UHGV virus genome: UHGV-0334114
Source of the DNA: a virus
Reading direction: 5' to 3' (one strand)
DNA length: 11,126 nucleotides
The stretch's first letter is position 1. Each line of letters opens with the position of its first letter. This document shows, piece after piece, positions 1 to 6,000 of this stretch. The position numbers and the translations under genes are program-made. A model generated the notes under the pieces. That model did no database searches, had not been told where the DNA came from, and saw nothing but the letters and a program-made list of their open reading frames with translations.

Positions 1-276
1 GAATTTTTTGTTCAGGTCTGGGGAAATGGAGCCAACTTCGACAACACGATTTTGCGCCGTTCATACGAACGGCAGGGGATCCCCTGCCCATGGCGTTACT
101 ACAACGATCGCGATGTACGCACAATCGTTGAGCTGGGGAAAGCCATAGACTTCGATGCCAGAACGGCTATTCCATTCGAAGGTGAGCGCCATAATGCACT
201 TGATGACGCCCGTTACCAGGCAAAATACGTTTCAGTTATCTGGCAAAAACTGATCCCGAATCAGGCTGATTTTTAA
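1..276 (+). CDS. 3'-5' exonuclease, DnaQ-like DEDDh family (C-terminal part; gene starts upstream of window)
   Basis: Frame 1 is open from base 1 (EFFVQVWGNGANFD...), so the gene enters from upstream; the listed ORF start at 52 is an internal TTG. Contains GANFD and HNALDDARYQAKY motifs typical of Exo II/Exo III motifs of DEDDh exonucleases. Sits upstream of xis-int, where lambdoid phages carry recombination/exonuclease genes. Confidence 0.7.
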   Translation, partial: EFFVQVWGNGANFDNTILRRSYERQGIPCPWRYYNDRDVRTIVELGKAIDFDARTAIPFEGERHNALDDARYQAKYVSVIWQKLIPNQADF

Positions 277-340
277 TGTTCAACCCCGGTCGTTGCCCAC
301 CAGCTATAGTGGCGGCGACCATGATTAGCGAACGACGCTC

Positions 341-589
341 ATGGCAAGACTTATTCTGCTCACTGAGTGGGCAAAAGAGGAATTCAGTGAACCGGTCCCT
401 ACTCCGAGTACGTTAAGTAAATACGCTAAAGCCGGAATGATATTTCCTCTCCCCAAAAAAGTTGGAAGACGCTGGCGAGTGGATCCGCAAGCTCGCTTTG
501 TCGGAATGGTAAACAAGCCGGAGGTGATCGCCACAGATCACCCTGCTTTGAAGAGGATACTGGAAGATGGCGCGCCCGCGAAAATATAA
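341..589 (+). CDS. xis: excisionase / recombination directionality factor (Xis-like)
   Basis: 82-aa ORF immediately upstream of int, overlapping it by 23 bp (567-589) as xis/int do in lambda. The basic motif IFPLPKKVGRRWRV resembles lambda Xis (IFPPPVKDGREY, from memory). No obvious Shine-Dalgarno, so the start is uncertain. Confidence 0.6.
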   Translation: MARLILLTEWAKEEFSEPVPTPSTLSKYAKAGMIFPLPKKVGRRWRVDPQARFVGMVNKPEVIATDHPALKRILEDGAPAKI

Positions 590-1697
590 AACCGATGTTC
601 CGGGATTATCTCCGTATTTTGACAAAAGAAATAACAAAGTTTACTGGCGTTACAGGCATCCCATAACAGGCAAAAATCACGGTCTCGGCAGTATTGACCA
701 GAAACTGGCAGAAACTATTGCAGCAGAAGCGAACAGCCGTCTTGCCCGGCAGCAAATGGAACAAATGCTCAGTCTGCAGGAGAAAATTATTAGTGATACC
801 GGCGGTTCATCAACCGTTACCATTTTTCTGAATAATTACAGAAAAATTCAACAGGAAAGATATGAAAACGGCGAGATCAAACTCAACACGCTGAAACAGA
901 AAGCGGCCCCTCTCAGGGTATTTGATGAACGTTTTGGCACCAGACCGTTAGATGCCATAACCGTAAAAGATGTGGTATCAGTACTGGAAGAGTACAAGGC
1001 CAGAGGACATAACAGAATGGGACAAATTTTCAGGAAAGTACTGATCGATGTTTTCCGGGAAGCTCAGCAAACGGGCGATGTCCCGCCAGGCTTTAACCCT
1101 GCAGAATCGGCAAAAAAACCGCAGGTGCGGATATCAAGACAGCGACTGACTTTTGATGAGTGGATGATGATTTATAACGCAGCGGAAAAGGATGGTTACT
1201 TTTTACAGCGCGGTATGCTGCTGGCACTGATGACAGGCCAGCGCCTTTCAGATATTTGCAAAATGCAATTTTCGGATATCCGGGATGGTTATCTTCATGT
1301 CGAACAGCAAAAAACAGGAACCCGGATTGCCATCCCTCTGGCTCTGCGTTGCGATAAATTAAATCTCACCCTGGATGATGTGGTGTCATCCTGCCGCGAT
1401 TGCGTTCTTAGTCCGTGGCTATTGCACCACCATCACGCGAAAGGGACAGCTAAGCGCGGCGGGATGGTTAAGCCAGCAACATTAACCGTTGCATTTAAAA
1501 AAGCCCGGGATTCTGTGGATTACAACTGGCGTGCTAATGGCACCCCACCCTCTTTCCATGAGCAGAGATCTTTATCAGAGCGATTGTTCAGAGAGCAGGG
1601 GGTTGATACCAAAATTTTGCTAGGCCATTCGAATCAAAAAATGACCGATATTTACAACGACGCACGCGGTAAGGAATGGAAAAAACTGGTCATTTGA
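567..1697 (+). CDS. int: tyrosine site-specific integrase, lambda Int family
   Basis: 376 aa. The C-terminal catalytic domain aligns by eye to lambda Int: TGQRLSD (Arg), EQQKTG (Lys), FHEQRSLSERL (His/Arg), LLGHSNQKMTDIY (His and Tyr nucleophile). AGAGGA Shine-Dalgarno 9 nt upstream of the ATG at 567. N-terminal arm-binding region is diverged from lambda Int. Confidence 0.95.
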   Translation: MARPRKYKTDVPGLSPYFDKRNNKVYWRYRHPITGKNHGLGSIDQKLAETIAAEANSRLARQQMEQMLSLQEKIISDTGGSSTVTIFLNNYRKIQQERYENGEIKLNTLKQKAAPLRVFDERFGTRPLDAITVKDVVSVLEEYKARGHNRMGQIFRKVLIDVFREAQQTGDVPPGFNPAESAKKPQVRISRQRLTFDEWMMIYNAAEKDGYFLQRGMLLALMTGQRLSDICKMQFSDIRDGYLHVEQQKTGTRIAIPLALRCDKLNLTLDDVVSSCRDCVLSPWLLHHHHAKGTAKRGGMVKPATLTVAFKKARDSVDYNWRANGTPPSFHEQRSLSERLFREQGVDTKILLGHSNQKMTDIYNDARGKEWKKLVI

Positions 1698-1708
1698 TGA
1701 CCAGTTTT
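1680..1708. terminator. bidirectional intrinsic terminator candidate (12-bp perfect inverted repeat overlapping the int stop codon)
   Basis: AAAACTGGTCAT (1682-1693) and ATGACCAGTTTT (1697-1708) are perfect inverted repeats around a 3-nt loop. The stem is flanked by A6 (1680-1685) and T4 (1705-1708), giving a U4 tail on the + transcript (int) and a U6 tail on the - transcript (ompW-like segment). Confidence 0.5.
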
Positions 1709-1738
1709 GCAGAGGGGTTTTGCAGAGGTTTTGCAGAG
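1705..1738 (+). repeat. three direct repeats of TTTTGCAGAG; candidate integrase arm-type binding sites (P' arm)
   Basis: TTTTGCAGAG occurs at 1705-1714, 1718-1727 and 1729-1738, immediately 3' of int. A fourth near-copy AGTTTTGCAGAAGG lies at 1979-1992 on the other side of the proposed core. Placement mirrors lambda P'1-P'3 versus P-arm sites. Confidence 0.45.
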
Positions 1739-1742
1739 AAAA

Positions 1743-1868
1743 TTAAAAACGATATCCTGCGGAGAACATAAACACCCACGGATCCAGTCGTACCGAGTCT
1801 TTTACGGTAGTAACACCAGATTTGTACTTAGCCGTGGTATCGATATCCATGTACCAGACCGGTAGGTT
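1743..1868 (-). pseudogene. ompW: phage-borne 3'-terminal segment of ompW (41 codons plus stop); probable attP core and replacement 3' end of the integration target gene
   Basis: The - strand frame reads NLPVWYMDIDTTAKYKSGVTTVKDSVRLDPWVFMFSAGYRF then stop, preceded by an in-frame TGA at 1869-1871. It matches the OmpW C-terminus as I recall it (...VWYMDIDTTANYKLGGAQQHDSVRLDPWVFMFSAGYRF). No OmpW-like coding continues upstream in any frame, so this is a fragment, not a gene. Confidence 0.6.
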
Positions 1869-2170
1869 TCAAAAAACACAATAACCAATTGTATTTGAAG
1901 CAAAAAACAAGACTTTGAGATGTTTTTTTGTACCTTTTTTTATGTTTTTAACTGTCTGATTTTATTGAAATCTTTTTTAGTTTTGCAGAAGGAATTTTTT
2001 ACTTGATTGTAACTTTTTCGTTTTTTTGGGGCTAATTGACGCGCAATGCTGGGCGGGGAGCGCACAGCCAAAAAAACCGAAATTGACCGCTAATTACTGC
2101 CAATCATCATCGCTCTGATTGAGCGTAAATCATTCAGGTTTTTCAGTTCTTCCTTCTGCTCTCGCTGACG

Positions 2171-2341
2171 TCAATAAATCCCATCATTGCGATCAACCTC
2201 ATCCTTAACCATTGATGCGAGCAGTTCTTCCAGTTTCTGCGCTGACAGCTTTACCTGGTGATCTTCAGCATCTTCCCGGGCTATTGTGGTTCGCGCAGTG
2301 GCTGATTTTGCTGACATCACCACAGGGGGCAGACGGACCAT
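2171..2341 (-). CDS. hypothetical small protein (56 aa), sole ORF of the b-region equivalent
   Basis: ATG at 2341-2339 is preceded by GGAGG about 10 nt upstream. Product is MVRLPPVVMSAKSATARTTIAREDAEDHQVKLSAQKLEELLASMVKDEVDRNDGIY, predicted helical and acidic at the C-terminus. The listed 93-aa version starts at a TTG 4 bp after the tfa stop and has an odd hydrophobic N-terminus. No family recognised. Confidence 0.3.
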   Translation of the reverse strand: MVRLPPVVMSAKSATARTTIAREDAEDHQVKLSAQKLEELLASMVKDEVDRNDGIY

Positions 2342-2455
2342 TGAACCATGGCCTCCGGAACAAATAAGGGCAAAAATAACAACCACTATCGAAAGCTCAC
2401 AAACTAACCGCAGCACGTTCCTGCATACGACGTGTCTGCGGCATAATCCCAATGA

Positions 2456-3040
2456 TTACTCCCTGACAGGGTTCGTAGGCCACTCAATATCAGGTGCAGT
2501 TGATGTATCAACACGGTTCAGCAACACCCGATACTTTTTCCAGGCTTCCAGCAATGAGGTTTCTTCCTCCGTTGCAATTTCCAGATCTGCAGCATCCTGA
2601 AGCGGCGCAATATGCTCACTGGCTACCTGCATCAGGTTGTTTTTTGTTTCTTCCGCCTCCCGGATCCGGAACAGTTTTTCTGCTTCCGTATCCTTCACCC
2701 AGGCTGTGCCGTTCCACTTCTGAAACTCCCCTTCCGGCGATAACCAGGTAACATTTTCCGGTAACGGACCGAGTTCAGAAATAAATAACTCGTCCCCTGA
2801 CGCTACGTCATAAACCGTTTTCCCCCGATGGTCTTCAACGAGATGCCACGATGCCTCATCACTGTTGAAAACAGCCACAAAGCCAGCAGGAATATCTGGT
2901 GGTGCAATATCGGTACTGTTTGCTGGCAGACCTGTATGAGGCGGAATATATGCGTCACCTTCACCAATAAATTCATTAGTTCCGGCCAGCAGATTATAAA
3001 TTTTTATGGTCCGTGCTTGTTCACTCATTCTGAATGCCAT
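2456..3040 (-). CDS. tfa: tail fibre assembly protein (lambda Tfa-like)
   Basis: 194 aa, the same length as lambda Tfa and near-identical to it as I recall ([50 protein letters not shown]...). Its ATG overlaps the stf stop (TAATG). Confidence 0.9.
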
Positions 3041-6000
3041 TATGCAAGCCTCACAATATAGTTAAATGCGATGTTTTTGACGGTGTTTTCCGCGTTACCC
3101 GCAGCGTTAACGGTGATGGTGTGTCCATGTGAACCAATCGCAACGGAGTGCGTATGCGCACCAATACCTACAGTATGTGCATGTGCGCCAGAACTTGCTG
3201 CAGTACCAGACAGCGAGTGGGTATGAGCACCTGCTGACTGTGTCTGAATACGTTGATAATACGATCTATAGGAAGAAGTCTCCGGGCTTACTTGATACTG
3301 TGAATTCTGGACATAAGTGAACCCACCGCCATCATAAAATGCTAACGCAGAACCGCCGCCTCCTGGCCAACGAATACCATTACCATGAGTATGAACACCG
3401 GCAGACCCCGTAGAGCCACTCAGACTGTGCGTATGCGCCCCGGTGTTATTCGTGGATTTAGTGCCGTAATCAAACGACGATGTGGTTTTCGTCCCCAAAT
3501 CCGTACTGGATGCGCTGGCGCTGTGGGTGTGCGATTTTATGCCGTCCTGTTCCTGAGACAATACGGCCCGGCCACTGGCGGGTTTGCCCTTAATCGTCCA
3601 GCCACGCATATCAGGGATCACGCCTGACGGATAAGCCGCTGCAAGTTTCGGGTAGGCAGATTTGTTAAAAGTCTGCCCCTGCATCAGGGCATAACCAGAC
3701 GGAACGGTATCTGATGGCCACGGGATTGGTGCGCCAACTGGGTAGCTTTCTGGTGGAAGATTTTTCGAGGTATAAACTTCTGCCCAGTCTTCCTCAAAAC
3801 CATAACCGTCTCTTGAAGAACGGTAGAACAGACCACGATTTCTGTAATGCGCCTTCATCTGCAGGGTCCGGCAACTTCCGACTCCGGTATAGAAGTTAAC
3901 CAGAATATAGCTGTCGCCAGAGCGGGCGACATTGTAAGCGCCTGATTCGGCATTCCAGGGAACGGCTCCATTCGAATCCGCATAAGCCCCCGTCGAACGT
4001 CGGGCAAATGCACCAATATTTTCCGGCGTGAGGTTAATATCCGCCGAGCCATCAAACTTAACACCGTTAATTTTTGGGGCTGCCGCAAGTTTCGTCGCGG
4101 TATCGGCGTTCCCCTTCAGTGCCCCGGTGATCCCATCAGTAACAGACAACGGACCTGAAATAGTCCCTCCAGTCGTTGGCAGCGCTCCAATATCTGATGG
4201 TGTAGGTTTCTGATGTGAGCTATACATCGTATAAACAACACCACCGGTAACGCTGGAAGGCTTACTCGCTGAATATGTTGGCGAGGTATAAATAGAAACT
4301 GACGCATTTGCAGTACAATCCCAATGGATATTTACACTCGTCGCATAATTGCCAATCTCAACGTAAATATCATATGTATCGCCGGATGTGTTGATCCAGG
4401 CGAAATTCGTTAATCCGACGGCTGTACGCTTCCACAAAGCCCCGGTAATTCCTTTGGGGTTTCCATTGCCTGCTCGTAGAACCAGTTCTGAAATGCCTGC
4501 CTGATGTGGGGAACCGACGTTGTAACCAGCGCCACCAATCAATGCGATGTAAACGATGGAACTCGCTTGTGGCATGGTAACCGTTGCCAGTTTGAACCAC
4601 CCAGCCCCGCCAGAGAAAGAGATCGTTACTGAATTTAAAGTGCCAATATCTTTCGGTGTTAATGTTATATCCGCAGTCAGTGCTTTCCCGTTAACTTTTC
4701 GGTTAGATGGTACCCTGCCATTCGCATTGTCATTCGCTGCTTTAACTGCCTTCGGTGTCGCGGCAAGCGTTTCAGATGTGATGTTGGTCGCACTGCTGAG
4801 CTGTACTATCCCCTTTTTCGTCGTACTTGCATCCTCAAGCGCCACGGCGGATGCAATATCCTCTGCCCGTTTTGCCGCTGTCTCGGCGCGCGTTGCCGCG
4901 GATTCCGCCGTACTTTTGCTCTGTGCTGCCGCCGTCGCACTGCCAGCTGCCTCTGTCGCCTTCGCGGATGCTGTCGTGGCGCTGCCCTTCGCTGCTGACG
5001 CCTGTCTGGTCGCCTCATCTTTTGAAGCAGACGCCGATGATGCCGATGACGCCGCCGAACTGGCGGACGATGCGGCAGCCGTTTTTGAGGATTCTGCGCT
5101 GGTCTCCGACGCTTTCGCGTTCGTCTCCGATGTCTTCGCTGCGGAAGCAGACCTCGCTGCTGCACTGGCCTGTTCAGTGGCTTCGCCAGCCTTCGTTGTG
5201 GCTGTTGAAGCGGACGATGCGGCGCTTTCTGCCGATTTTCCGGCGGCGCTAGCACTGGCTGAGGCCTGCCCGGCACTTGTTGACGCTGCACTGGCAGACG
5301 ACGCAGCCGCTGTTTTTGAGCCTGCTGCTGCGGAGGCACTCTGTGCTGCTGCCGTTTCAGAGGACTTAGCGTTTGTCTCAGACGTCTTTGCCGCCTTCGC
5401 GGAATTTCCTGCCGCCGTTGCCGAGGAAGCGGCATTACTGGCGCTCGAGGCTGCGCTCGTTTCTGATAATTTTGCCGCCTCTTTTGAAGCCGACGCATCT
5501 CTGGCTGAGGTGGCTGCTTCTGACGCTTTCGTGGTCGCGGTGGATGCAGAAGTGGCAGCTGATTGTTGTGACGCTGCCGCATTCGTTTCTGACGTTTTCG
5601 CCGCACCGGCACTGGTGGCCGCCGCGCTTTTTGAGGACTCTGCAGCGGCAGCACTTTTTGATGCTTCAGTGGCCTTTGCTGATGCCGTTCCTGCGCTGGA
5701 AGACGCAGACTGAGCCGACGAAGCGGCCTGTCCGGCTGACGTGCTGGCTGCTCGTGCTGAGCCTGCAGCATCAGTCGCACGGGTTGCCGCCTCACGGGCT
5801 GATGTGCTGGCATCGCTGGCTGATTTCTTCGCGGCTGCCGTGTTCTGTGCCACCGCGGACGCGTTACGCGCCACCTCTTCCACCATCAGTTCAAAGCGGC
5901 GCAGTGCCTCAGGACGGGCATCATCCTCCGTCATGGCACCGAGAAAATCATTCAGCGTACCGGGTCGGGAATCTTCATACACGGTGATGGTCCCGGCATG

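What the first reader, a model, noticed from the sequence alone, without database searches (positions are those of the whole stretch)
1680..1738. Palindromic terminator overlapping the int stop codon, followed by tandem 10-mer repeats
A perfect 12-bp inverted repeat with a 3-bp spacer spans the int stop codon, flanked by an A-run on one side and a T-run on the other. It could end int transcription on the + strand and ompW transcription on the - strand after integration. It might also act as an RNase III-type processing site, analogous in role though not position to lambda sib. Three TTTTGCAGAG repeats follow immediately and would lie in the 3' UTR of the reconstituted ompW.
Basis: seen in the sequence. 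Interest (0 to 1): 0.4.

Follow-up and report, generated by a model that had tools for sequence, protein, structure and literature searches.

The report
Phage attP arm: terminator hairpin plus integrase sites
The palindrome and repeats form one outer arm of the attachment site of an ompW-integrating lambda-like phage: the three repeats are most likely integrase "arm" binding sites, and the palindrome is most likely a two-way transcription stop shared by the phage int gene and the rebuilt host ompW gene, which is an ordinary kind of element in a slightly unusual arrangement.

Summary
A perfect 12-bp inverted repeat (1682-1693 / 1697-1708, 3-nt loop) encloses the int stop codon (TGA 1695-1697). 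Three exact TTTTGCAGAG copies lie at 1705, 1718 and 1729.

The repeats are not incidental 3'-UTR sequence. They match the arm-type integrase sites of a lambda-family attP (like lambda P'1-P'3 and the phage 21 dodecamers). The same triplet, always spaced 13 + 11 bp, follows int in 64 distinct loci with at least eight different insertion targets. A single direct copy marks the far end of the other arm.

The palindrome is a conserved RNA hairpin. In relatives whose neighbouring int sequence differs at 22-38% of positions, the 24 stem bases differ at 0-1, while the loop and stop codon vary. Four pair changes are compensatory. ompW integrators keep pairing on both strands and a T6 run on the ompW strand. 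Three non-ompW relatives pair only on the int strand. In most other targets a GC-rich hairpin sits on the other side of the repeats.

Best reading: a bidirectional intrinsic terminator. A sib/RNase III role is not supported. No transcript ends were mapped. This is a new member of a known kind, of modest interest.

The parts
341..589 (+). xis (excisionase), overlapping the start of int
   Evidence: Pfam Exc PF07825, E = 1.3e-7. Annotated as excisionase in homologous records.
567..1697 (+). int, a lambda-family tyrosine integrase with an N-terminal arm-DNA-binding domain; stop codon TGA at 1695-1697
   Evidence: Pfam Arm-DNA-bind_1 PF09003, E = 7e-22, and Phage_integrase, E = 1.3e-16. Match to lambda Int structures 5j0n/1z1b, E about 1e-55 over residues 14-375.
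1682..1708 (.). Hairpin-forming palindrome (12-bp arms, 3-nt loop); proposed bidirectional intrinsic terminator shared by int (+) and the reconstituted ompW (-)
   Evidence: No equivalent in 300 shuffles. Stem conserved and compensated across relatives.
1680..1685 (-). A6 on the + strand = T6/U6 run directly after the 8-bp core stem on the ompW-sense strand (also the Lys-Lys codons of int)
   Evidence: Sequence. AAAAAA is kept in all but two of the ompW-type hairpin variants seen (the L010/L110 variant has AAAAGA). It is interrupted in the three non-ompW relatives.
1704..1714 (+). Arm-type site, outermost of the int-proximal (P') arm; its first 5 nt are shared with the right arm of the hairpin
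   Evidence: Family consensus RGTTTTGCAGRRG.
1717..1727 (+). Arm-type site, middle of the P' arm (13 bp after the first)
1728..1738 (+). Arm-type site, innermost of the P' arm (11 bp after the second)
1743..1865 (-). Phage-borne, diverged 3' end of ompW (stop codon = TTA at 1743-1745 on the + strand) that replaces the host 3' end on integration
   Evidence: Pfam OmpW, E = 6.7e-13. Alignment with K-12 ompW and with attL/attR of PPompW_132418. Translation.
1834..1856 (.). Core identity with attB (GTGGTATCGATATCCATGTACCA); the crossover must lie here
   Evidence: attL carries the phage version of ompW' up to this block and host sequence after it. attR is the reverse.
1980..1990 (+). Solitary arm-type site (GTTTTGCAGAA) at the outer end of the int-distal (P) arm
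   Evidence: Homology among three different PPompW-type P arms ends right after it. Equivalent solitary copies occur in attP-form loci L020 and L084 and in phage 21.

Best explanation
Positions 1680-1738 are the outer end of the int-proximal (P') arm of the attP site of an ompW-integrating lambdoid phage of the PPompW family. Two functions are packed together there.

(1) The three GTTTTGCAGAG units are arm-type binding sites for the N-terminal domain of the phage integrase. They are the counterparts of lambda P'1-P'3 and of the three phage-21 dodecamers. Together with a fourth direct copy at 1980-1990 on the other arm, they would let Int bridge arm and core DNA in the recombination complex. 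The crossover lies in the 23-bp identity at 1834-1856.

(2) The palindrome is transcribed into a stem-loop that acts as a bidirectional intrinsic terminator between two convergent genes.
- On the - strand, after integration, it would end ompW transcripts about 60 nt past the ompW stop: an 8-bp core stem, then U6. The host terminator has been displaced to the far end of the prophage.
- On the + strand it would end or cap int transcripts. The stem is followed by UUUU, which is supplied by the first arm site.

Shown here: the anatomy, the position of the crossover, the conservation and covariation, and the distribution across relatives. Inferred: Int binding to the repeats, and actual termination on either strand.
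For: Repeats:
- Int has the lambda arm-binding domain (PF09003, E = 7e-22) and is homologous to lambda Int over its whole length.
- The triplet occurs directly after int in 64 distinct loci, always spaced 13 + 11 bp, with consensus RGTTTTGCAGRRG. The int C-termini and the downstream target sequences differ: ompW, icd and at least six others.
- Within E. coli variants the units are constant while the spacers vary, and the unit number changes by whole 11-bp units in L007 and L123.
- A solitary direct copy lies on the other arm in every attP-form locus: +245 in the ompW type, +176 and +177 in L020 and L084. In the window, homology among three different P arms stops right after it.
- Phage 21 has the same layout with GTTTTGGGGAAG. 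Its GenBank record annotates the three copies as attP subsites P1P2P3. e14 has TTTTGATAA x3 with the same 13/11 spacing.

Hairpin:
- All 22 distinct sequences recovered with a pattern that left both arms unconstrained carry it.
- In divergent ompW integrators the 60 nt of int before it differ at 13-23 positions, but the 24 stem bases differ at 0-1. The loop and the stop codon change (TTG/TGA to ATA/TAA or TTA/TAA).
- Double, pair-preserving changes occur at three of the twelve stem pairs: A-T to G-C (L106/L124), C-G to T-A (L102/L123 and L017/L052) and T-A to C-G (L020).
- 95.8% of cells pair on the + strand and 92.3% on the - strand, against less than 50% when the partners are slid.

Use of the - strand:
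- ompW integrators fold at -9 to -16 kcal/mol on both strands and keep A6/T6.
- The three relatives with other targets (L017, L052, L020) fold at -10.7, -7.2 and -12.5 on the + strand but only -0.8, -0.2 and -3.1 on the - strand.
- In L014 and L018 a two-gene insertion separates int from the arm. The hairpin stays with the repeats, is lengthened to 14 bp, and has a T-run only on the - strand.
- In most other target groups there is no hairpin at the int stop, but a strong GC hairpin (-15 to -20.6 on the - strand) lies between the repeats and the host-gene fragment. In phage 21 that hairpin is annotated as a terminator. The ompW type has none there, because its ompW stop is 4 nt from the repeats.
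- The native ompW 3' flank, including its hairpin shared with convergent yciE, is wholly replaced on integration.
Against: - No transcript 3' ends, Int footprints or termination assays are available.
- The consensus terminator scan did not call the hairpin on either strand. This is probably because stem extension uses up the T-run, but it remains a negative result.
- On the + strand only four U's follow the core stem, and the int stop codon lies in the loop, so a terminating ribosome would melt the stem.
- The statistical support for covariation is modest: 25-34 of 500 shuffles reach the observed values, and only 14 distinct hairpin variants are known, many closely related.
- The contrast between ompW and non-ompW relatives rests on two independent lineages.
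- One target group (L019/L025) shows no strong hairpin on either side of the repeats, so a phage-supplied terminator is not universal.
- The insertion target of L014 and L018 could not be seen.
Confidence: 0.7

Rival explanations
1. The hairpin serves only the int transcript (+ strand), as a terminator or a 3'-end stabiliser like lambda tI. Its ability to pair on the ompW strand is a free consequence of Watson-Crick symmetry and has no role.
For: All 14 variants pair on the + strand (95.8% of cells). The three non-ompW relatives keep only + strand pairing through G.U pairs, and all 5 one-sided right-arm changes are G.U on the + strand.
Against: - ompW integrators of similar divergence show no + strand-only wobble in most variants. 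Their commonest variant (right arm ACGACCAG) is an A.C mismatch on the + strand and G.U on the - strand.
- The T6 run on the - strand is conserved only in ompW types.
- In L014 and L018 the hairpin is detached from int, yet retained, lengthened and followed by T's only on the - strand.
- Its position alternates with the downstream GC hairpins of other target groups.
Confidence: 0.15
2. The palindrome is a DNA site for a dimeric protein, such as an accessory recombination factor or a repressor, or an Int core-type site, rather than an RNA structure.
For: It lies inside attP, next to the arm-type sites. Perfect dyad symmetry is typical of operator-like sites.
Against: - Both half-sites change together while the sequence itself is not kept.
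- In L017, L052 and L020 the DNA dyad is broken at 3-4 of 12 positions, but RNA pairing persists through G.U.
- The 3-bp spacer does not fit a core-type site with a 6-8 bp overlap region, and the palindrome lies outside the attP/attB identity.
- There is no full IHF consensus match in 1691-2010; only the partial core TTGAT is found.
- Most Int relatives with the same arm motif lack the palindrome.
Confidence: 0.05
3. The hairpin is an RNase III processing site that gives sib-like retroregulation of int.
For: It sits at the 3' end of int and forms a perfect duplex.
Against: - The duplex has only 12 bp. Folding of 76-91 nt around it adds no longer helix. By established knowledge RNase III substrates, including lambda sib, are about two helical turns.
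- The hairpin lies between int and the crossover, so it remains attached to int in both phage and prophage. sib works because integration separates it from int.
Confidence: 0.04
4. The repeats act at the RNA level in the ompW 3' UTR (for example as an Hfq or sRNA platform) or are a meaningless tandem duplication, not Int sites.
For: They would be transcribed between the ompW stop and the hairpin in lysogens. No Int binding has been tested.
Against: - The identical triplet with fixed 13/11 spacing follows int in phages inserting at icd and other targets, and a copy lies on the non-transcribed-with-ompW P arm.
- The units are conserved while the spacers drift.
- Phage 21 and e14 have the same architecture with different motifs.
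Confidence: 0.04

Closest known systems
Phage 21 attP (record OL657228; arm 'dodecamers' and alternative icd 3' end)
   Same: The order of parts is the same: int stop, three tandem T-rich arm repeats, a terminator hairpin for the host gene, a phage-borne 3' fragment of the host gene, the core, then a fourth direct repeat at the far end of the other arm. The Int proteins are homologous. The long attP is explained by the need to carry the host gene's 3' end; that this explanation was proposed for phage 21 is from my own recollection of Wang et al. 1997, which I could not retrieve.
   Different: The motif is GTTTTGGGGAAG rather than GTTTTGCAGAG, with spacing 13/12 rather than 13/11. The target is icd, not ompW. 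The terminator hairpin lies between the repeats and the host-gene fragment, not on the int side overlapping the int stop codon.
Lambda attP arm-type sites P'1-P'3 and P1
   Same: Int is homologous (E about 1e-55) and has the same arm-binding domain. By established knowledge of lambda, three adjacent arm sites abut the int stop codon, with about 10-11 bp periodicity. P1 on the other arm is in the same orientation, about 175 bp away. Loci L020 and L084 reproduce that distance.
   Different: The motif differs (lambda C/AAGTCACTAT). Here the P' sites lie about 112-136 bp from the core centre, against about 55-80 in lambda, because about 93 bp of ompW coding sequence intervenes. No inverted P2-like copy was found. 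Lambda has no hairpin at the int stop.
Lambda tI terminator / sib retroregulator
   Same: A hairpin at the 3' side of int that could define the end of int transcripts.
   Different: tI/sib lies across attP from int and is separated from it by integration; this hairpin is not. sib forms a long RNase III substrate in read-through RNA, whereas this stem has 12 bp.
e14 element attL region (E. coli K-12)
   Same: Three tandem repeats with identical 13/11 spacing, followed by a GC hairpin and a phage-borne icd 3' end. IntE is a homologue, 52-53% identical in its N-terminal and catalytic domains.
   Different: The motif is TTTTGATAA. Extra genes separate int from the arm, as in L014 and L018. There is no hairpin overlapping the int stop.
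Bidirectional intrinsic terminators between convergent genes (e.g. the native ompW-yciE hairpin)
   Same: A single hairpin between two convergent genes, with an A-tract on one side and a T-tract on the other. The native ompW flank has such a hairpin, GACCCCGTAATATACGGGGTC.
   Different: The phage hairpin is AT-richer (-14.9 against -16 kcal/mol). It overlaps a stop codon and an Int arm site. Its longer T-run is on the ompW strand, whereas the native one has its T-run on the yciE strand.

Membership tests
Arm-type integrase binding sites of a lambda-family attP | The cognate integrase carries an N-terminal arm-DNA-binding domain | tested here: met
   PF09003, E = 7e-22 over residues 2-71. Full-length homology to lambda Int.
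Arm-type integrase binding sites of a lambda-family attP | A short motif, unrelated to the core sequence, is repeated on both arms flanking the crossover | tested here: met
   Three copies at 1704-1738 and one at 1980-1990, on either side of the core at 1834-1856.
Arm-type integrase binding sites of a lambda-family attP | The motif follows the integrase lineage, not the insertion target | tested here: met
   64 distinct loci with at least eight targets share the motif and the 13/11 spacing. Phage 21 and e14 integrases have different motifs in the same layout.
Arm-type integrase binding sites of a lambda-family attP | The sites lie within, and delimit, the functional attP | tested here: inconclusive
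   Homology among three P-arm variants ends just after the fourth copy. This suggests a boundary, but no minimal-attP assay exists.
Arm-type integrase binding sites of a lambda-family attP | Direct binding by the Int N-domain | not testable with these tools
   Needs EMSA or footprinting.
Rho-independent (intrinsic) terminator | A stable stem-loop with a short loop | tested here: met
   12-bp stem with a 3-nt loop, -14.9 (+) and -14.4 (-) kcal/mol. The 8-bp core alone gives -9.4.
Rho-independent (intrinsic) terminator | A U-run immediately 3' of the stem | tested here: inconclusive
   On the - strand, U6 follows the 8-bp core. On the + strand, only U4 then GCAG follows. The consensus scan called neither strand, apparently because the stem extension absorbs the T-run.
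Rho-independent (intrinsic) terminator | Located just downstream of a gene end | tested here: met
   It begins 34 nt past the ompW stop on the - strand and overlaps the int stop on the + strand.
Rho-independent (intrinsic) terminator | Pairing, not sequence, is conserved | tested here: met
   Three of the twelve stem pairs show double changes. 0-1 of 24 stem bases differ, against 13-23 of 60 in the flank. The shuffle control is only moderately significant.
Rho-independent (intrinsic) terminator | Transcript 3' ends map to the U-run | not testable with these tools
Lambda sib-type retroregulator (RNase III site) | Lies across attP from int, so that integration uncouples it | tested here: not met
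   The hairpin is on the int side of the crossover and remains in attL next to int.
Lambda sib-type retroregulator (RNase III site) | A long (about 20 bp or more) duplex in read-through RNA | tested here: not met
   Only the 12-bp helix forms in 76-91 nt folds.

The most novel reading that the evidence does not exclude
The hairpin may be more than a passive two-way stop. Three features coincide at it:
- the int stop codon sits in its loop;
- its right arm shares 5 nt with the outermost Int arm site;
- it is shared with convergent ompW.

It could therefore act as a gated terminator. Ribosomes finishing int, or Int protein bound at the outermost arm site, would alter hairpin formation. That would couple int expression, ompW read-through into the prophage, and Int occupancy of attL.
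Probability: 0.08. Interest if true: 0.5.

Novelty: new member of a known kind. Interest (0 to 1): 0.3.

Why it matters
- **Defining the site.** The work replaces the annotated '121-bp att sequence' of the widespread PPompW prophages (present next to ompW in about a third of complete E. coli genomes) with a functional attP of about 310 bp. The parts are a 23-bp core, a diverged ompW 3' replacement, a P' arm with three Int sites and a P arm with one. That is useful for predicting excision competence and for engineering.
- **A general rule.** Phages of this Int lineage that insert into the 3' end of a host gene usually bring a terminator for that gene. The ompW group has placed it on the int side of the arm sites, where one hairpin can serve both convergent genes.
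- **Limits.** None of this changes current ideas about site-specific recombination or termination.

Tried and rejected
- **Terminator scan.** The consensus scan did not flag the hairpin. I judged this a consequence of its rule that extends the stem into the T-run, not evidence of absence, and I record it as a negative.
- **Rfam.** Searching 1-3200 found no RNA family at the site.
- **IHF sites.** A full consensus search in 1691-2010 found none.
- **CII promoter motif.** A search for TTGYN6TTGY, to locate a pI-like promoter, found nothing in xis or int.
- **Literature.**
  - Searches for the repeat motif and for arm-type sites of ompW, icd or phage 21 phages gave nothing usable.
  - The 1997 phage 21 attP paper is not held.
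  - The PPompW paper (PMC8112680) defines only a 121-bp att duplication and mentions neither arm sites nor a terminator.
- **L014/L018 downstream sequence.** Attempts to see it failed, so their insertion target is unknown.
- **Looser viral scan.** A looser hairpin pattern in viral contigs returned only chance matches beyond those already found.
- **Considered and rejected.** A sib/RNase III site, a DNA-binding palindrome, a core-type Int site and RNA-level repeats; see the rival explanations.
Full report
**What is in the sequence.**

Gene content:
- The window carries xis (341-589) and int (567-1697) on the + strand.
- Int is a lambda-family tyrosine integrase. It has the Arm-DNA-binding domain (PF09003, E = 7e-22) and matches lambda Int structures at E about 1e-55.

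The palindrome:
- The inverted repeat AAAACTGGTCAT/ttg/ATGACCAGTTTT occupies 1682-1708. It encloses the TGA stop at 1695-1697.
- A perfect 12-bp inverted repeat with a 3-8 nt loop was never produced in 300 dinucleotide shuffles.
- The RNA folds at -14.9 kcal/mol on the + strand and -14.4 on the - strand.

The repeats and the ompW fragment:
- Exact TTTTGCAGAG copies start at 1705, 1718 and 1729, so the first shares its TTTT with the hairpin's right arm.
- With the preceding G the unit is an 11-mer.
- A fourth direct copy, GTTTTGCAGAA, lies at 1980-1990.
- On the - strand, 1743-1865 encodes the last 40 residues of an OmpW protein (Pfam OmpW, E = 6.7e-13).

**Where the crossover is.**

Identifying the relatives:
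- The region is 99.5-99.8% identical to the 'PPompW' prophages of STEC and to phage 204576.
- About a third of complete E. coli genomes have this int next to ompW.
- The paper that described PPompW defines a 121-bp att duplication, equal to window 1741-1861. It does not mention arm sites or a terminator (PMC8112680; annotation).

I aligned the window with attL and attR of PPompW_132418 and with the empty K-12 site:
- The 121 bp are not identical between phage and host.
- attL keeps the phage version up to GTGGTATCGATATCCATGTACCA (1834-1856) and then switches to host sequence. attR is the mirror image.
- The crossover is therefore within that 23-bp block.
- Positions 1741-1833 are a phage-encoded, diverged replacement for the ompW 3' end.
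- Identity to the host stops 2 nt beyond the ompW stop codon. Integration therefore replaces the whole native ompW 3' flank, including the hairpin it shares with convergent yciE, with the repeats, the palindrome and int.

**The repeats are arm-type integrase sites (inferred).**

Distribution:
- A scan of viral contigs for two adjacent units, plus a metagenome scan, gave 64 distinct loci where the triplet directly follows an int gene.
- Spacing is 13 + 11 bp in all 64, with consensus RGTTTTGCAGRRG.
- The int C-termini and the downstream sequences fall into at least eight groups. One group is the icd-inserting type, recognisable by ...TTACAT, which is the icd stop region.
- The motif therefore tracks the integrase lineage, not ompW.

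Variation within E. coli:
- The units are invariant while the spacer bases vary.
- Two variants have gained a fourth unit of exactly 11 bp.

The other arm:
- Every locus in unrecombined attP form has one more direct copy on the far arm: at +245 in the ompW type, and at +176/+177 in L020 and L084.
- The latter distance is close to the lambda P'1-P1 distance as I recall it.
- In the window, homology between three otherwise different P arms ends immediately after that copy.

Known elements with the same layout:
- Phage 21 has three GTTTTGGGGAAG units after int, annotated as attP subsites P1P2P3 in OL657228. These are followed by an annotated terminator, an icd 3' fragment and a fourth copy on the other arm.
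- e14 has three TTTTGATAA units with the same 13/11 spacing, then a hairpin and an icd fragment.
- The N-terminal domains of all these integrases are related but differ in the first strands.
- Binding itself was not tested.

**The palindrome is a selected RNA hairpin.**

Ascertainment and conservation:
- The metagenome pattern constrained neither arm: GANTGG, 25 free bases, then the repeats. All 22 distinct sequences it recovered, together with those already held, carry the hairpin.
- In seven divergent ompW integrators from other genera or from metagenomes (those with an assembled int have Int about 68% identical), the 60 nt of int just upstream differ from the window at 13-23 positions. The 24 stem bases differ at 0-1.
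- The loop and stop codon do change: TTG/TGA becomes ATA/TAA or TTA/TAA.

Double, pair-preserving substitutions:
- A-T to G-C in L106/L124, at the cost of an Ile-to-Val change in Int.
- C-G to T-A in L102/L123 and again in L017/L052.
- T-A to C-G in L020.

Pair counts:
- 95.8% of cells pair on the + strand and 92.3% on the - strand.
- Less than 50% pair when the partners are slid.
- Three pairs show changes on both sides.
- Only 25-34 of 500 shuffles reach the observed values, so the formal support is moderate, as expected from 14 variants.

A dimeric protein site is unlikely. The half-site sequence is not kept, and in three relatives the DNA dyad is broken while RNA pairing persists.

**Which strand.** Four lines of evidence point to use of the ompW (-) strand in ompW integrators, in addition to the int (+) strand.

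1. *Tail.* On the - strand the 8-bp core stem is followed by T6. On the + strand it is followed by TTTT and then GCAG. AAAAAA is kept in all but two of the ompW-type hairpin variants seen (the L010/L110 variant has AAAAGA), although AAG codons would be synonymous.

2. *Contrast between targets.*
   - The three relatives that insert elsewhere (L017, L052, L020) have G.U pairs that hold only on the + strand. They fold at -10.7, -7.2 and -12.5 kcal/mol on the + strand, against -0.8, -0.2 and -3.1 on the - strand. Their T-run is also interrupted.
   - L017 and L052 have a separate GC hairpin next to their own target gene.
   - ompW integrators fold equally well on both strands. Their commonest variant (right arm ACGACCAG) is an A.C mismatch on the + strand but G.U on the - strand.

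3. *Detached hairpins.*
   - In L014 and L018 a two-gene insertion separates int from the arm.
   - The hairpin stays beside the repeats and is lengthened to 14 bp by pairing GC with the GC of the first unit.
   - It is followed by T's only on the - strand.

4. *Complementary positions.*
   - Most other target groups have no hairpin at the int stop (0 to -7 kcal/mol on the - strand).
   - They have instead a strong one (-15 to -20.6) between the repeats and the host-gene fragment.
   - The ompW group has the reverse arrangement.

The + strand also appears to be under selection. Pairing there survives in every variant, and all five one-sided changes in the non-coding right arm of the non-ompW relatives give G.U on the + strand.

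**Mechanism proposed.**
- After integration, ompW transcription runs through the phage-borne 3' end and the three arm sites, then terminates at the hairpin and its U6 tail. That gives a 3' UTR of about 60 nt and prevents antisense transcription into int and xis.
- int transcripts end or are capped at the same hairpin. Its U-run on that strand is supplied by the first arm site.
- The arm sites themselves act at the DNA level during integration and excision.
- What is shown: the geometry, the crossover position, the conservation and the comparative distribution.
- What is inferred: termination and Int binding.

**What it is not.**
- A sib-like RNase III site is not supported. The helix has 12 bp and no longer duplex forms in 76-91 nt folds. 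The hairpin also lies on the int side of the crossover, so it is never uncoupled from int.
- Rfam has no family here.
- The consensus terminator scan did not call it. I attribute this to stem extension absorbing the T-run, but it remains a caveat.
- One target group (L019/L025) has no obvious hairpin on either side of the repeats, so a phage-supplied terminator is common but not universal.

**Novelty and score.**
- Both components are known kinds of element.
- New here: the arm motif of this Int lineage, the corrected anatomy of the PPompW attP, and the placement of the terminator on the int side of the arm sites, overlapping the int stop codon and the outermost arm site.
- Interest is modest (0.3).

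Noticed in passing
window 1746-1865 (- strand); L008, L009, L011: The phage-borne ompW 3' end does not restore the host protein. It replaces the segment between the last two beta-strands: K-12 TTANYKLGGAQQHDSVRL becomes TTAKYKSGVTTVKDSVRL here. Other PPompW variants carry TTASYKFNGTPVKD, or a version 5 residues longer. By barrel topology this should be the last extracellular loop, so these prophages may alter a surface epitope or receptor of OmpW.
   Followed up: partly
window 1560-2100; 22 E. coli chromosomes (e.g. L002): The unrecombined int-attP-tail-fibre arrangement of the window is found intact inside 22 complete E. coli chromosomes. Those prophages therefore did not integrate through this attP. 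This matches the 'attB-in-PP_3' sequences described in PMC8112680.
   Followed up: partly
L014 2690-3897 and L018 (same region): A two-gene cassette (306 aa and 96 aa, - strand) is inserted between int and the hairpin plus arm repeats. Int has acquired a new C-terminus...KKIII. The function of the cassette was not examined.
   Followed up: no
window 2499-2697 (- strand): Full-length match to Rfam RF02111 'IS009' (225 bits, E = 2e-56), inside the tail-fibre-assembly ORF 2456-3040.
   Followed up: no
L015 about 2600-2630: In a Kluyvera MAG the int gene has an in-frame TAA (GAA to TAA) six codons before the normal stop, while the hairpin and repeats are intact. This could be a sequencing error or a truncated Int.
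   Followed up: no
L007 605-650; L123: Two variants carry four arm units instead of three, through gain of exactly one 11-bp unit. L120 has only two units.
   Followed up: partly
L003 2160-2220 (K-12 ompW-yciE intergenic): The native hairpin GACCCCGTAATATACGGGGTC downstream of ompW has its T-run on the yciE strand and none on the ompW strand. The host ompW terminator therefore lacks a canonical U-tail.
   Followed up: no
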